Part shown: positions 3,274-63,262 of the stretch, piece after piece | Numbering within the stretch: position 1 is the stretch's first letter | Layout: each line of letters opens with the position of its first letter | NCBI GenBank assembly: GCA_964016885.1 | Contig: OZ024746.1 | Coordinates: 33,046,001-33,110,000 of the forward strand | Length of the DNA: 64,000 nt | Source: Eledone cirrhosa | Taxonomy: Eukaryota | Direction of reading: 5' to 3' | Translations under genes and position numbers: made by a program | The notes under the pieces: model-generated | What the model was told of the DNA's origin: nothing | The model's database searches: none | The model's input: only the letters and a program-made list of their open reading frames with translations

Positions 3274-3437
3274 AACGAAGGAAATGTGGTAAGGAACCAG
3301 GTGGACCATAACGCACCAAAGTACTCAATACTTTGGGTAGTAGAGTGGGTAATAGGAACCAGTAAGACCCCGACGGCTGAGCTCAAGCCGTTTCGAAACG
3401 GCTTGAGCTCAGCCGTCGGGGTCTTACTGGTTCCTAT
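3274..3437 (-). mobile_element. PLE terminus fold-back insertion (family A) with the 3' half of an HHR
   Basis: Perfect palindrome ~3352-3437 centred on ttcgaa. Contains GAAA-CGGC..GCCG-UC and is flanked by (TA)n. Related pieces at 21093-21183 and 26695-27003. Confidence 0.7.
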
Positions 3438-3790
3438 ATATATATATATATATATATATATATATATATATATATATATATATATATATATATATATATA
3501 TATATATATATATATATATATATATATATATATATAGTAGAATAATCGAGTATCGAAAAATCGGCGCACGAGTTCACGATAAACAAAATTCGATATGAGC
3601 GGCAGAGGGCTCAATAATTTAGATAAATCAGAGCTATAACTATCGTTAAAATACCGTCACACATAGAACAAGTCTATAATCAACCATACGACCGAAACAT
3701 TGCGATCTGGAAGATTCGGGACACTCAGATAAAAAATCAATAAATCAATAAATCAAATATATATATATATATATATATATATATTTATAT

Positions 3791-3950
3791 AGTAATAATA
3801 ATAAATGTGAAGACAAAAATCCAAAGAGGGCTCGATACAGCGATTATTTGCTTAAACTTTAATCTGTTATTTTAATATATATATATATTAAAATAACAGA
3901 TTAAAGTTTAAGCAAAGAATCGGTGCTTTCACCCTTAACGGGATCTTATA
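3791..3950. repeat. Fold-back repeat related to 41735-41900
   Basis: ttgcttaaactttaatctgttattttaa inverted around a TA core; same sequence recurs at 41828-41890. Confidence 0.6.
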
Positions 3951-4136
3951 TAACGAAGGAAGTGTGGTAAGGAACCATATATGTATACAGAGGTACATGC
4001 ACACATACATATATGTACGTATGGATTCACCGAACATTTATTATAATGCTCGGTGTGTCTGTAAACAAACATCCCAAATTAAGCCGTACAGTGTCTAGCA
4101 ATCATCGTTGCTCATTTGTTCAACGCTGACAAAGGA

Positions 4137-4179
4137 ACGCTGTACTAGTTTCAAGCTTATTAGCTATCGTCAGCAACGT
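4137..4179 (-). ncRNA. Minimal type I hammerhead ribozyme
   Basis: ACGUUG-CUGACGA-U-AGCU aata AGCU-U-GAAA-CUAG-UA-CAGCGU; second partial copy at 4228-4243. Confidence 0.75.
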
Positions 4180-4419
4180 ATACATTCCTGCCAGATGATT
4201 GAACGTCTGAAAGTATATACTTTCCTTACGCTGTACTAGTTTCTGTACGTCTGTATACATATATGTATGTACGTATACATACTTATATACATGTATACAT
4301 ATATGTATGTACGTATACATACATGTATGTACGTATACATACGTACTAAGAGTGAGAAATGAAATTTTGTTTCATTTTTTCCGTTTATATATATATATAT
4401 TAGTTCAAAAAGGACAAAC

Positions 4420-58475: not shown

Positions 58476-58744
58476 CGCATGGCCTACTGGTTAAAATGTT
58501 TGGCGTACGTTTGTAATGTCGTCGGTTCGATTCCTAGCCAGGCTGCTGCGGTGTGTTCTTGAGCAAAACACTTTATTTCACGTTGTTCCGGTGAGTTCTA
58601 GCAGTAACTGGGGAATTAAACCTGCGATAGGTCAGCGTCATATCCAGGGAGGTTATTCTACTCTTAGTCTCTTAGCGCCAAGGAAACTGGTGATAATCAC
58701 CGGCTTATTGACTCTTTGGGTTAAAACAGACTTTAACTTTAACC
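58476..58744 (+). mobile_element. tRNA-derived CORE-like SINE
   Basis: A box tggcctactgg, B box ggttcgattcc, gtgttcttgagcaaaacactt core, ctttaa tail. Confidence 0.65.
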
Positions 58745-59621
58745 ATATATATTTTGAACAATGATTTAAACAAACTAATTTTCTGTTTCCTCGCAAACAA
58801 CACCATCACCGTAAATACTACATCATTTCTTTAACAATCCTACCACATTTTGTGGCGCAGAGGAGATTGTACGGTTATGTGACTAACTTCATTTGCCTCA
58901 TAAAACAGTATTTAGAAAGTTGTAAAATATTAAAACGAATATCACACGGAAAACAAAGTGAATAAGTAGTGTGCTTTCACAGGAATTTGACAACTCTATT
59001 TGAAGTAATTTCGTTATGGTATAATTGGCGCTGTTTAGCTTAAAACAGCCATAAATTACTGACGTTCCAGCGCCACTTTTCGTCTTGTGAGAAAGAGTCA
59101 ATTAGTACAATATTATCTACTATATCCTTATTGTTTCAATTTGTGATTTGATGGCAATTTGGCTACCATATCTTGCAGAATGATTGACAACATAGTGGCT
59201 GACTGTAAACCTGTCATAATCTTAGGATCTTAAAGCAAGCTAAAGACTGATAAGCATATCTAACAATGAACATCGCATTTCAATTTGTTCGGTTAAAATA
59301 TGAACTTCTTTTTGTTAGACTCTGAACTGATATTTATGATTAATAGAAAAGACGGTATGATCACTGTTGGAAACGATTCACTAAAATACTTGTTTCAGAA
59401 CACGTCTTTATCAACATGGGCATAGATTATGCAAACACTTATTCTTGATGTTGCCAACGATGGTGCTATTGCTGCTGCCATTGCTGCTGCTACTGCTGCT
59501 GTATTTCTAGTTGATATTGTTGCTGATTTTCACCCAAGTAAACACATGATGAAAAGAAATCACCCCTCCATTGGCCTTTCAGATATTACGAGCAACTAGG
59601 TTGATATTATACTATATACTA

Positions 59622-59802
59622 AGGGTGGTGGATTGCCAGTGTCGGTAGAGCGTCGGACATACTACTTCGAAGCATAGACTATACGTTCTGAGTTCAAATC
59701 ACACCGAGCTTAGCTTTGCCTTTCTGTGACTACTAGGATCGATTTAATCGACTTTCCCCTTCTCTTCAAATTGCTGGCCTTGTACCTATAGTAGAAACAA
59801 TT
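59622..59802 (+). mobile_element. tRNA-derived SINE
   Basis: Homologous to 63523-63710; TSD attatactatat. Confidence 0.8.
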
Positions 59803-60575
59803 ATACTATATGCCGCTGTACGCCTCCTTTATTTTTCGAATGTTTCAATGTGGAATGAAAAAGATTTGTTGTATTTCCTGGGCAGTATTTTATGCTATGC
59901 ACTACATACCTACATCGACTATCCGTTTATATTACTGGGTGTAATATGATGCATTATATAACCTTTTCAACAGAACTCACCATGTGTATGAATGGCTTAG
60001 AAGTTTAGATGTATATATCATCGTTTGTTTGTTTGCTTGTTTGTTTGCTTGCCTGCTTGTTTGTTTGTATGCATAAATGCATGCATGTATGTGTTATGTA
60101 TGAAAGTAAACATGTATGTTCATATGTACGTAAGTAGGTATGTTTGTAAGCATATATGTATATATGAATGATGCTATATGTATGTGTACATCCACAGGCA
60201 TCCATAGAATGGAGTAAATGAGTTGAATTTTTAATTTAATCTATGTATTAATCTCTTTCATCTCTCTCAATCTCTTTGTCTCTCCCCATCCCTCGTTATA
60301 CACTCACATATATATGTGTGCGTGTGTGTATATGTATTTATATATATATATATATATATACATATCTATGCATATATATACATATATATATATACATACA
60401 TATATATGTATATATATTTATATATATGTACATATATATATATATACATAAGTATATATATGTATATATATTTATATATATATATATATATATATATATA
60501 TATATATATATATATATATATATATATATATATATATATATATATATATATATATATATATATATATATATATAT

Positions 60576-63262
60576 AAATTAATAAAATAATGAATAAACA
60601 AAGAAACAGTTCCTTATATTAAAAAAATTCATCATTTTACGATCGTTTCTAGGATATATATGTGTTAGAGTTGGTATGCATATTCTATAGATCTATGTAC
60701 AATATTTATACAAACTATCAGAGGGAATATACATACCTACACATATATATGCTGTCTTCAGAAATAAAACCAAATTTCTCTAACTCTTCTAATATACAAT
60801 ATAGTAACTCTCAAAAAACTACTCATCCTACAACTCTAATAAATGTTAATAATAAAACTCCTAATAAACAAGCTAAAACACCTAAATCAATAAATCCTAC
60901 TAAAAATGTGTGTGGTGAGGTCATTAACAATAATTCTCTTAATAAACATCAGGATACATCCTATAAAAACAATAAACAACACCGAAACCGTAATAGACGA
61001 GTCACTTGGTATAATGCTCCATTTAATTTACAAATTAAGGATAATATACCTAAAACATTCTTTAATATCCTAGAGAAAAACTTCCCGCCAAACCACAAAT
61101 ACCATCAAATTATAAATAGATCAACGGTTAAATTCTCCTACTCAACAACCAAAAACATAAAACAAAATATAAGTGCCTACAATGCATATAAATTTAAAAA
61201 GACCATGAGTATACCACCGGTACATCAAACTAACCATAATATCTCCTCAGATACAGGATTCACGAAAAGTTGTAACTGTAGAAACAAGGCAAACTGTCCA
61301 TTAAAAGGAAATTGCCTTGTTAATAACATAGTATATAAATGTAAAGTTAACACTAAGGACTCAATTTATTCATATATAGGAGCTACCTCTAACAAATTTA
61401 AGGTAAGATTTAATACCCACAAACATAGTTTTAAAAATGCTGCACTAGCTAATACAACATCTCTAGCTGAAATAATTAATAATTATAGAAAGAGGAATAT
61501 AGATTATGACCTGACCTGGAGTGTTCTCAAAATAGTAGATATGAATGTAGATTATGTTCCCAAGAACTTTTTCAAATAATGAAATCTAAGGATATCCTAT
61601 TAAATAAGCGACAGGAATTAATAATATCGTGTAATCATAAACTGAGAAAAACCTTTAAATATTATAAACCTAATTAATATACACTTTAGAAATTAATATA
61701 TAAACTGTTTTTAATTTAGTTAACCTATAATTAATATTCTACTACTGATGAACCACATAATTTTACTTTCCTTCTTACAACTATCATTTCCTAAAACTGA
61801 TACCATTAAGTAAACATATATAATGCCTTAACTTCAGGTTATGACTCTATGTTCCTTGAAATCTCTATATATTTATTATTTCTCACTAATAAATTTAATC
61901 CCCCCCCCCCAATAATTATATGTATATGTAACTATGTATGTGTGTGTATATATATGTGTATGTATGTATATATGTATATATATATATATATATATATATA
62001 TATATATATATATATATATATATATATATATATATATATATATATATATATATATGTGTATATATATATATATATATGTGTGTGTATATGTGTGTGTGTA
62101 TGTGTATATATATATATATATAATTAAGTTAAAAATGTACATTTTTAACTTAATTGTTTAAGCGTCAGTCATACAAAAGTGAGTTACAAACGAAACGAAA
62201 TTTAATTTCGTTTCGTTATTTGTTATATATATATATGTATATATATATTATTTTTATATTCTTTTAATTTCCCCTCATCTTTAACAGCACTCTTCAACTG
62301 CATCTAACTCTTATTTATCATATCTATATGCATTAGTATAATTTTATCAATATAAATATACCCATTAATTAAATTAATTTATATTCTTTTCATAGATGTA
62401 TTTTTTTCACTAACACTCTTATTATAAAATTTTAGTCTCCTTAGATATTTGCATTGGCATTATTGGTTTATAACAGCAACTGCTCATATACCTTTTACTG
62501 ACCTGACCTATTTAAATAACTTTCTCATTCTTCACACTCCATTCAAAACTGAAATCTGCCTTATTCTACCCCTAAAATAAGCTTCAATTACTACTATTTT
62601 ACCATTTGGCCAATTATTAACTTTCTATAGGTTAATTCTAAACCTCTTACCAAACAAACAGAATATATTAGATCTTTGTTGGTTTTATTCAATGAACAAA
62701 TATAATTATTTCTGAGGTCAGCATACGACCTATTTTCATCCCCTAAATAATCTTTCATTCATAATATTCTTTTCCATCCAAAACTGAAATCTACCATCCT
62801 CTACCCATAATTTAAGGTTCTTCTACTACTATATTACTATTTTGACCCTCACTATCTCTCTATTGGTCAATTCAAAACCTGTTCCCAAACAGACCTATTG
62901 TATTGAATCTTTGTTTTTTTCAATAAACAAATATCATTATTTCTGAAGACAGCATATATATGTGTAGGTATGTATATTCCCTCTGATAGTTTGTATAAAT
63001 ATTATACATAGATCTATAGAATATGCATACCAACTCTAACACATATATATCCTAGAAACGATCGTAAAATGCTGAATTTTTTCAATATAAGGAACAGTTT
63101 CTTTGTTTATTCATTATTTTATTAATTTATCTTGACTCTGTTTCCCGTTAATTTTCACCGAAAACAGTTTTTGAATGCATCTACTCTTTTCATGATATCC
63201 GAATTACATTGAGTTCTTCATACGGATTGGACACTACCGTAAATGTTTGGTAGATTTATCTA
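60576..63262 (+). mobile_element. 5'-truncated PLE (CNCR..CPL type, GIY-YIG part only) with inverted pseudo-LTR
   Basis: ORF 60662-61579 (WYNAPF, CNCR.KANCPL, IVY..YIGAT); 60576-60767 is the reverse complement of 62937-63128. Confidence 0.85.
62939..63071 (+). ncRNA. Hammerhead ribozyme with ~105-nt stem II insertion
   Basis: AUUU-CUGAAGA-CAGCAUAUAUAUGUGU...ACACAUAUAUAUCCUA-GAAA-CGAUCG-UA-AAAU. Confidence 0.65.

What the first reader, a model, noticed from the sequence alone, without database searches (positions are those of the whole stretch)
3274..63262. Recurrent fold-back PLE insertions in (TA)n with a family-fixed long end and short end
Seen in about 12 insertions (3274, 8328, 8655, 12450, 13238, 15840, 24732, 27027, 29198, 38311, 57694, 60576). 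Two head-to-head copies of the same terminus both run out into microsatellite, usually (TA)n. One reaches the full end; the other stops ~40-135 bp earlier at an internal AT-rich word. Independent copies stop at the same place (19549 and 57694 at ttaatatca; 29594 and 60576 at tattaa). The ORF-bearing arm can have either end (short at 13238 and 19549, long at 63262 and 38822). Inverted pseudo-LTRs are established for PLEs. Inference: both strands of a (TA)n break prime reverse transcription at two defined RNA sites, and the two cDNAs are then joined.
Basis: partly seen in the sequence, partly recalled or inferred. Interest (0 to 1): 0.8.

Follow-up and report, generated by a model that had tools for sequence, protein, structure and literature searches.

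The report
Twin RNA hairpins set retroelement ends
Hairpin-shaped insertions of Penelope-like jumping genes almost always carry one long and one short end, and in one large clade each end sits at the foot of one of two matching, conserved stem-loops predicted in the element's RNA, which likely lets a paired enzyme start copying from both sides of a cut in a TA repeat at once.

Summary
Eleven of the 12 listed insertions are long+short head-to-head PLE insertions; 24732 has a non-standard short end, and 38822 is a solo copy. In 150 resolved pairs from six families, 148 carry the tail on exactly one arm; none is long+long. Raw Illumina reads from other samples show the same short end and strand-switch joints. 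The inverted copy, the tail, (TA)n targeting and two RT start sites are published (Craig 2021, Frangieh 2024); the scan noted the layout in other genomes. Not found in print: (1) near-obligate long+short pairing, with either arm longer and some arms sharing no sequence, which argues against snap-back copying; (2) a twin stem-loop element, hammerhead - hairpin 1 - hairpin 2 - AUG, joined by a covarying helix. It is seen in six Hydra-clade families here and in distant marine relatives, where copy ends also fall at the foot of either hairpin (13 of 18). Best model, inferred: a dimer on this pseudo-symmetric RNA primes both target strands, one per hairpin, and the cDNAs join by microhomology. No biochemistry was done.

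The parts
3275..3434 (.). Family D (Hydra clade) fold-back: long arm on the left, short arm on the right, tail 80 nt
3316..3344 (-). Hairpin 1 (short-site hairpin) in the family D tail
   Evidence: E=0.0011
3789..3873 (.).
7330..8308 (.). Family E: inverted long arm, then a read-through tandem of about 470-bp units ending at the short site; hammerhead-like match at 8030-8100; no ORF
   Evidence: Rfam HH9 E=4.6e-4, below gathering score
8329..8615 (.). Family K: short-ended arm plus a tail-only long arm; the two arms share no sequence
8655..9090 (.). Family C (Neptune-like) fold-back; long end runs into (TC)n
12450..13198 (.). Family F fold-back, tail about 114 nt, hammerhead-like core in both arms
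13238..15168 (-). Family J (Poseidon-like): ORF-bearing arm with the short end, inverted arm 15061-15168 with the long end, tail 43 nt
15840..19549 (+). Family A (Hydra clade): inverted long arm 15840-16581, 5'-truncated RT/EN frames 16571-18153, short end at 19549
15895..15924 (-). Hairpin 1 in the family A tail
   Evidence: E=5.7e-5 (family A is in the training set)
24732..25439 (.). Family G (Neptune-like) fold-back; short end about 24 nt inside the family's usual short site
27027..27222 (.). Family I (Hydra clade) fold-back; hairpin 1 at 27064-27092 (-)
29198..29594 (.). Family B (Hydra clade) fold-back, tail about 136 nt because hairpin 1 carries a large apical insert
38311..38735 (.). 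Family H (Hydra clade) fold-back; hairpin 1 at 38364-38398 (-)
38808..41690 (-). Family C solo copy with long end, RT + GIY-YIG second ORF, 5'-truncated, no inverted arm
57694..58143 (.). Family A near-perfect palindrome; both arms stop about 185 nt upstream of the short site; minimal hammerhead about 57943-58015; hairpin 1 at 58059-58088 (+)
60576..63262 (+). Family B: inverted short arm 60576-60767, EN-bearing arm ending at the long site 63262, with nested repeats inside

Best explanation
These are insertions of several Penelope-like retrotransposon families whose two arms end at two fixed sites, one arm at each, and they are likely made by one paired enzyme that primes reverse transcription from both cut strands of a (TA)n target on a twin-hairpin RNA platform. 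Shown by sequence: in Hydra-clade read-through copies the order is hammerhead, short site, hairpin 1, helix strand, long site, hairpin 2, complementary helix strand, start codon; the ends of genomic copies fall 5-13 nt before either hairpin. Inferred steps: (1) the two hairpins on the two strands of one helix are related by a rough two-fold axis, and each would seat one RT of a homodimer; (2) the endonuclease would cut both strands of the self-complementary repeat, and each 3' end would pair with a few AU bases at its site; (3) both cDNAs would grow on the same RNA, the long-site enzyme displacing the short-site cDNA; (4) the two cDNA 3' ends would join through 0-8 nt of microhomology or a short filler and be filled in, giving a head-to-head insertion with the tail on one arm only; (5) arms longer than about 190/275 nt would need a tandem or circular template.
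For: Pairing: 148 of 150 resolved pairs have the tail on one arm only, 144 at both standard sites, 0 long+long; P about 6e-41 if ends were chosen independently (computed for 145 of 147). Separate templating: short arm longer in 18, long arm longer in 15, tie in 8 of 41 family A pairs; 5 of 48 long arms are tail only. Same source: own partner closest or tied in 27 of 34, permutation p<1e-5, with 2 private variants shared by both arms against 42 on one arm. Junctions: microhomology 21, blunt 7, filler 13, long AT-rich overlap 2 of 43. Twin hairpin: at the short site in 6 of 6 and the long site in 5 of 6 Hydra families, shuffle rate under 0.01 per window; predicted in advance for family D and found in 323 places. 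A model trained on this genome finds two hits upstream of the ORF in 26 and one in 18 of 58 distant relatives; 81 of 127 hits lie in 14.8 kb of upstream sequence. 6 of 8 pairs covary, 124 double changes against 50 +/- 5 shuffled. The joining helix forms better within an element than between elements: -10.8 against -6.1 kcal/mol, 23 elements, p<1e-5. Copy ends lie at a hairpin foot in 13 of 18 relatives with a visible flank. Published support: two RT start sites, both strands cut and extended, a predicted dimer, and a need for RNA 3' of the start sites (PMC11167929).
Against: All mechanistic steps are inferred from DNA. Two pairs are short+short (L314, arms only 90% identical; L333), four have a non-standard short end, five could not be resolved, and about a quarter of sampled family A insertions (about 17 of 67) have no detectable partner arm. 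The twin hairpin is not seen in the Neptune-like (C, G), Poseidon-like (J) or E families; there only the tail-to-downstream helix appears, with modest support (p 0.004, 0.05, 0.07, 0.24). The hairpin descriptor was made after looking at the data, the model search used a loose cut-off (E up to 10), and alignment A5 is fitted to the model. 14 of 58 relatives gave no upstream hit and 5 of 18 copy ends lie elsewhere. Haplotype sharing does not separate one RNA from two RNAs of the same source. One family D pair (L276/L277) differs between arms near the short site.
Confidence: 0.62

Rival explanations
1. Two RNA molecules are used. They pair through the same helix between molecules, so one offers its short site and the other its long site, and each RT copies its own template without strand displacement.
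For: It enforces long+short pairing equally well. Both arms can exceed 2-4 kb (L107, L318, L330), which is easier on separate templates. PLE hammerheads are described as working in tandem or dimeric form (PMC6765202 passage). L314 and L276/L277 have arms of different haplotype.
Against: Arms nearly always share a haplotype. Eight of 41 pairs stop at almost the same base, as expected if one RNA end stops both enzymes. The helix can close within one molecule over about 60-90 nt.
Confidence: 0.2
2. One cDNA folds back and copies itself (self-priming), and the endonuclease then resolves the intermediate, leaving the tail on one side, as proposed earlier for Penelope elements.
For: Proposed in PMC3846280 (Discussion) and PMC8557442. 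It explains near-perfect palindromes (8 of 41 ties) and haplotype sharing.
Against: A copy of a long-site cDNA cannot be longer than its template, yet the short arm is longer in 18 of 41. A copy of a short-site cDNA cannot contain the tail. Five long arms share no sequence with their partner. G-U pairs in the hairpin fit the sense strand, not an antisense template.
Confidence: 0.07
3. Both strands prime at or beyond the long site, and the short end is made afterwards by endonuclease cutting or trimming at a TA-like word next to hairpin 1, read as a DNA signal.
For: The tail was reported as needed for endonuclease recognition in D. virilis Penelope (as quoted in PMC11167929). The short sites carry 2-6 nt of TA-like sequence.
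Against: RT initiation at both sites was mapped directly in vitro for the anole element. The same hairpin precedes both sites, covaries as RNA with G-U pairs, and better TA words nearby are not used.
Confidence: 0.1
4. The hairpins are assembly or read-chimera artefacts.
For: Inverted repeats beside (TA)n are hard to assemble (PMC8557442).
Against: Fixed asymmetry in six families, arm-specific mutations, varied junctions, and raw Illumina reads of three other samples with 5,077-7,638 loose ends into (TA)n at the short site and opposite-strand joints.
Confidence: 0.01

Closest known systems
Poseidon element of Anolis carolinensis (PAc), Frangieh et al. 2024, PMC11167929
   Same: Two adjacent internal RT start sites that bound the tail; both target strands cut and extended; AT-rich target; hammerhead upstream and not needed; predicted dimer; RNA 3' of the start sites required.
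   Different: The text read does not report one-site-per-strand pairing, a duplicated hairpin or a joining helix, and leaves later steps open. Tail 30-40 nt there, 39-136 nt here. PAc sites lie inside the ORF and are described as not homologous to the target; here they lie in the 5' UTR with 0-6 nt of TA-like overlap.
Complex PLE insertion unit: pLTR, inverted 5'-truncated copy, optional tail (Arkhipova et al. 2013 PMC3846280; Craig et al. 2021 PMC8557442)
   Same: Same layout, head-to-head palindromes, tail often at one end only, microsatellite targets, partial tandems.
   Different: Described there as optional and explained by self-priming or endonuclease resolution. Here it is near-obligate (148 of 150), either arm can be longer, and arms may not overlap at all.
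Hydra clade of C-terminal EN+ PLEs (Craig et al. 2021)
   Same: Families A, B and D have the RW(R/K), DKT and CxCx5C motifs, lack CCHH, have one ORF and a hammerhead-like core, and insert in (TA)n.
   Different: The twin-hairpin element is not mentioned in the main text (0 hits for hairpin or stem-loop). Units here are 3.5 kb or more, against under 3 kb. Supplements not seen.
Twin priming of L1 (Ostertag and Kazazian 2001; title seen in a reference list; content recalled)
   Same: Two target 3' ends prime on one RNA and the cDNAs join by microhomology to give an inversion.
   Different: In L1 the second site is variable and upstream, arms barely overlap, and the event is a minority outcome (recalled). 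Here both sites are fixed by RNA structure, 40-136 nt apart, arms overlap by up to kilobases, and it is the main outcome.

Membership tests
EN+ Penelope-like elements | RT with C-terminal GIY-YIG endonuclease | tested here: met
   Pfam RVT_1 (below cut-off) and GIY-YIG (above cut-off) on 39394-41691; full ORFs of A, B, D, J. Pfam did not hit the window's Hydra fragments.
EN+ Penelope-like elements | pLTRs from partial tandems, inverted 5'-truncated copy, tail at one end | tested here: met
   L061, L062, L109, L121, L318, L322, L328, L330
EN+ Penelope-like elements | Hammerhead motif in the pLTR | tested here: inconclusive
   Core and stems seen by pattern and by eye in A, F, H, E; Rfam gives one sub-threshold hit; cleavage not tested
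Hydra clade (families A, B, D) | RWK-type motif, DKG changed to DKT, CxCx5C linker, CCHH absent | tested here: met
   Read from the ORFs of L427, L321, L428 against the definitions; D118, N122 and C596 are invariant in 83 relatives
Hydra clade (families A, B, D) | Falls in the Hydra clade of an RT tree with named references | not tested
   No named reference proteins were at hand; families H, I and Lf are placed only by N-terminal similarity of 42-55%
Hydra clade (families A, B, D) | Insertion into (TA)n | tested here: met
   Simple-repeat flank in 166 of 179 (A), 38 of 38 (B), 125 of 136 (D) mapped ends
Neptune clade (families C, G) | CX2-5CxxC linker before GIY-YIG, CCHH, GxKF and DKG | tested here: met
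   Family C second ORF; G shows GxKF and DKG, its EN end was not read through
Neptune clade (families C, G) | Single ORF | tested here: not met
   Two overlapping frames (476 + 775 codons) in both arms of L318; same first frame and overlap in L328. Filed as Neptune-like only.
Penelope/Poseidon clade (family J) | No CX2-5CxxC linker; GxKF, DKG, CCHH present | tested here: inconclusive
   L322 ORF has GPKF, DKG and a CX4CP linker that is not CX2-5CxxC; no tree
L1-type twin priming | Second primer site variable, arms non-overlapping | tested here: not met
   Sites fixed and arms overlapping in 43 of 48 family A pairs; works like twin priming but is not the L1 form

The most novel reading that the evidence does not exclude
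Penelope-like elements integrate by an obligate symmetric double priming: a homodimer sits on a pseudo-two-fold RNA platform, cuts a self-complementary microsatellite, and starts one cDNA from each strand at each half of the platform. The fold-back with one tail is then the normal primary product in all endonuclease-bearing PLE clades, and the Hydra twin hairpin is a portable signal that sets where reverse transcription starts.
Probability: 0.45. Interest if true: 0.87.

Novelty: new variant of a known kind. Interest (0 to 1): 0.72.

Why it matters
How PLEs make inverted pLTRs and the tail is named as unresolved in both Craig 2021 and Frangieh 2024. The pairing rule and the conserved RNA element turn it into a few simple tests: move, break or swap each hairpin and read the start site on each strand. 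PLE RTs are the sister group of telomerase, so an RNA structure that fixes the template start bears on how template boundaries arose. The element also gives a marker for annotating Hydra-clade ends and explains thousands of palindromes in a 3.0-Gb animal genome.

Tried and rejected
Complex prediction for two copies of residues 1-480 of the family A protein gave no answer (score 0.00, alignment not used); it is neither for nor against a dimer. No RNA run was listed for family A, so transcription start, splicing and circular RNA were not checked. Rfam gave nothing for the twin hairpin. A direct repeat behind both sites was looked for in C, G, J and E and not found (p 0.2-0.46). The idea that the short site is the best TA-like word was dropped, because longer TA runs in the pLTR are not used as ends. 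The idea that arms stop at the hammerhead cut (about 49 nt before the short site) was dropped: 5' ends cluster at 180-200 nt (12 of 82 arms) and 120-145 nt (11 of 82) upstream. The idea that full-length copies start at that 185-nt site was not borne out: upstream pLTRs of full copies start from 912 nt before to 35 nt after the short site. Gene conversion as the cause of arm identity is unlikely. The genome-wide frequency of the two-frame layout in family C stays unmeasured. Papers not held: PMC522041, PMC5785218, PMC311219.
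Full report
Setting. The window is G000:C6:33046001-33110000 of a 3.0-Gb, microsatellite-rich animal assembly. The closest named protein relatives of family A are from Argonauta hians at 36-41% identity; I did not try to identify the species. Family letters below are my own labels.

Check of the observation. 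Masked self-BLAST and reading of the sequence, then mapping on read-through copies, confirm head-to-head insertions at all 12 listed starts. Eleven have one arm at the family's long site and one at or within a few bases of its short site. At 24732 the short arm stops about 24 nt early. At 8328 the long arm is only the tail, so the arms share no sequence. 38822 is a solo long end. Tails run from 39 (G) to 136 nt (B).

Genome-wide sampling. Exact core patterns gave 6,662 (A), 3,899 (C), 8,005 (B), 1,877 (J), 10,087 (D) and 5,825 (G) matches. Each search lists the first 100 places on contig C1. For A, I fetched the surroundings of all 100. For the others I used the 30 loci returned plus opposite-strand neighbours chosen by coordinate only, blind to end type; for D only 8 of about 19 further pairs were fetched. 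This favours young copies, and outside A it misses tail-only arms. Ends fall in two sharp peaks in 10 of 10 families. Pairs scored by eye: long+short at the standard sites A 48, C 19, J 19, B 23, G 12, D 23, in all 144 (three tail-bearing arms among them are cut, deleted or 12 nt short: L405, L407, L257); long plus non-standard short 4 (L123, L204/205, L418, L424); short+short 2 (L314, L333); long+long 0; unresolved 5 (L157, L332, L386, L387, L396). Independent choice of ends would give about half mixed pairs; P is about 6e-41 (run on 145 of 147 before one B pair was reclassified and the non-standard ones added). About 17 of 67 sampled family A insertions have no partner arm; one of them (L105) has a 6-nt trace of a short arm.

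Not an artefact. Raw RAD reads of three other samples, laid on a family A pLTR, give 5,077-7,638 loose ends into (TA)n at the short site per run, and joints to the opposite strand at several places. Long-site ends were not among the loose ends printed (699 rows not shown), and single window loci were not read-checked.

Each arm has its own RNA-templated origin. In family A, junctions could be placed for 43 of 45 pairs and both 5' extents for 41. The short-ended arm is longer in 18, the long-ended arm in 15, and 8 tie within 12 nt (after moving L109, whose short arm is a tandem). Five of 48 long arms hold only tail (L136, L141, L142, L147, L155). A snap-back copy cannot be longer than, or disjoint from, its template. 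Junctions show 1-8 nt overlap in 21, a blunt join in 7, filler in 13 and long AT-rich overlaps in 2; BLAST end extension may inflate the overlaps. The two arms share a haplotype: own partner nearest or tied in 27 of 34, mean distance 1.35 against 5.09 between insertions, and private variants lie almost always on one arm (42 against 2; 27 of the 42 come from two rows whose window crosses the junction).

What marks the two sites. Tandem copies show that the long site is internal to the RNA, about 50 nt before the start codon in family A. The sequence after the short site and after the long site is a direct repeat in A (shuffle p<0.0005) and H (p=0.006). Both fold into a hairpin with a 4-bp base stem, a 2-3 nt U-rich bulge on the 3' side and a variable top. 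I predicted that family D, whose read-through I had not seen, would have the same stem a few bases after its long site; the search returned 323 places, nearly all with one spacing. A descriptor made afterwards finds the hairpin 6-13 nt after the short site in 6 of 6 Hydra-type families and 5-9 nt after the long site in 5 of 6; the sixth has a changed, still paired stem (by eye). It finds one other pairing in about 5 kb scanned. Family B's long tail is due to a large insert in the top of hairpin 1. RNAalifold recovers the base stem on its own; with the inner pairs, 4 of 8 pairs covary.

The element is clade-wide. A covariance model from ten hairpins of this genome was run on 78 metagenome loci encoding relatives of 32-38% identity (E up to 10). 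Of 58 loci with at least 150 nt upstream, 26 have two hits, 18 one and 14 none; 81 of 127 hits lie in 14.8 kb upstream of ORFs and 15 in 166 kb of ORF spans. The printed upstream regions show the order hammerhead, hairpin, hairpin, start codon. On 104 distinct hits, 86.7% of cells pair and 6 of 8 pairs covary (the alignment is fitted to the model, so it leans that way). The strands that follow the two hairpins pair with each other: -10.8 kcal/mol within an element against -6.1 across elements, own partner in the top 3 of 23 for 17. In these relatives, 38 second copies of the upstream region were found: 13 end at the foot of hairpin 1 (8) or hairpin 2 (5), 8 of them before a simple repeat; 5 end elsewhere; 3 read through; 14 are cut by the contig end (3 of them exactly at a foot); 3 cannot be classed. 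In the window the model hits 9 places at E<0.05; six lie in tails of mapped families and three near other repeat-flanked ends.

Other clades. In C, G and J the tail also pairs with sequence after the long site at similar offsets (9/14, 11/12 and 24/24 nt; 10, 8 and 7 bp; p 0.004, 0.05, 0.07), as in A (37/35) and H (41/37); E is not significant and B needs G-U pairs. In K the offsets are less even (by eye). So the pairing rule holds in all three PLE types sampled, but the twin hairpin only in the Hydra type.

Mechanism. Two hairpins, each 5' of one strand of a shared helix and each preceded by a start site, are related by a rough two-fold axis. (TA)n is self-complementary. A homodimer on this RNA would place one RT at each site and one cut strand at each RT, which gives one long and one short arm every time. 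The platform exists only where pLTR runs into the 5' UTR. A transcript starting about 185 nt before the short site would yield the many short palindromes that stop there (12 of 82 arms; 57694 is one). Longer arms need tandem or circular templates, in line with arrays of four 3.5-kb units in family D and with the circular-RNA proposal in PMC4209133. These steps are inferred. Whether one RNA or two is used remains open.

Comparison with print. PMC11167929 (parts 1-3 of 4 read; supplementary PDF 2 had no text, PDF 1 and the figures not seen, so its RNA fold may bear on novelty) shows two start sites, both strands extended, a predicted dimer and a need for about 55 nt beyond the main start site. 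PMC8557442 (passages and the Hydra section; supplements not opened) and PMC3846280 (passages and Discussion) describe the layout and favour endonuclease resolution or self-priming. PMC6765202, PMC4209133 and PMC7229834 were seen as passages. Nine full-text searches gave no paper, among those listed or opened, on obligate pairing, twin priming in PLEs or this RNA element. Arkhipova 2006, Evgen'ev and Arkhipova 2005 and Pyatkov 2004 were not read. Earlier notes of this scan report the same layout in other genomes and call it ordinary; none holds the twin-hairpin words.

Verdict. The layout and the two-site idea are known. The pairing rule and the conserved twin-hairpin platform appear new, are well supported by sequence, and make the open question testable. 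New variant of a known kind; interest 0.72.

Noticed in passing
window 38808-41690; L318:4900-8561; L328; L314: Full copies of Neptune-like family C have two overlapping frames (476 and 775 codons), the second in the -1 frame, with a canonical slippery heptamer in the overlap; family G looks similar. This may be programmed ribosomal frameshifting, unusual for single-ORF PLEs. Seen in three copies only.
   Followed up: partly
L149:5290-5685: A family A short arm appears joined head-to-head to an arm of a D-related family: a possible cross-family event or a chance neighbour.
   Followed up: no
G000:C1:91476611-91487262 and C1:437200348-437210965: Family D tandem arrays of four units of about 3.54 kb, fitting a multimeric or circular template.
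   Followed up: partly
L318 (G000:C1:21871600-21881200): A palindrome of two full 4.2-kb family C units, long end on one side and short end on the other.
   Followed up: yes
window 7330-8308: Family E is an ORF-less unit of about 470 bp with a hammerhead-like motif that follows the same long+short rule; a likely non-autonomous passenger.
   Followed up: partly
window 26738-26770 and 28165-28200: Hairpin-model hits that point to two more Hydra-type tails not assigned to a family.
   Followed up: no
L062:3296-3305 (family A pLTR): A splice-donor-like word about 146 nt before the short site, just upstream of the second cluster of 5' ends; an intron could span both priming sites.
   Followed up: no
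window 5846-6127, 20012-20131, 48837-49228: Further inverted repeats, older or of other families.
   Followed up: no
window 898-2529, 21263-24682, 33442-35949, 53862-56039: Other retroelements: two L1/Tx1-like fragments with zf-RVT, an RTE-like copy also flanked by (TA)n with an inverted end, and a second Neptune-like ORF of 725 codons.
   Followed up: no
many loci, e.g. L317, L319, L331: PLE ends of different families sit next to each other in one (TA)n run, so insertions pile up in the repeats left by earlier ones.
   Followed up: no
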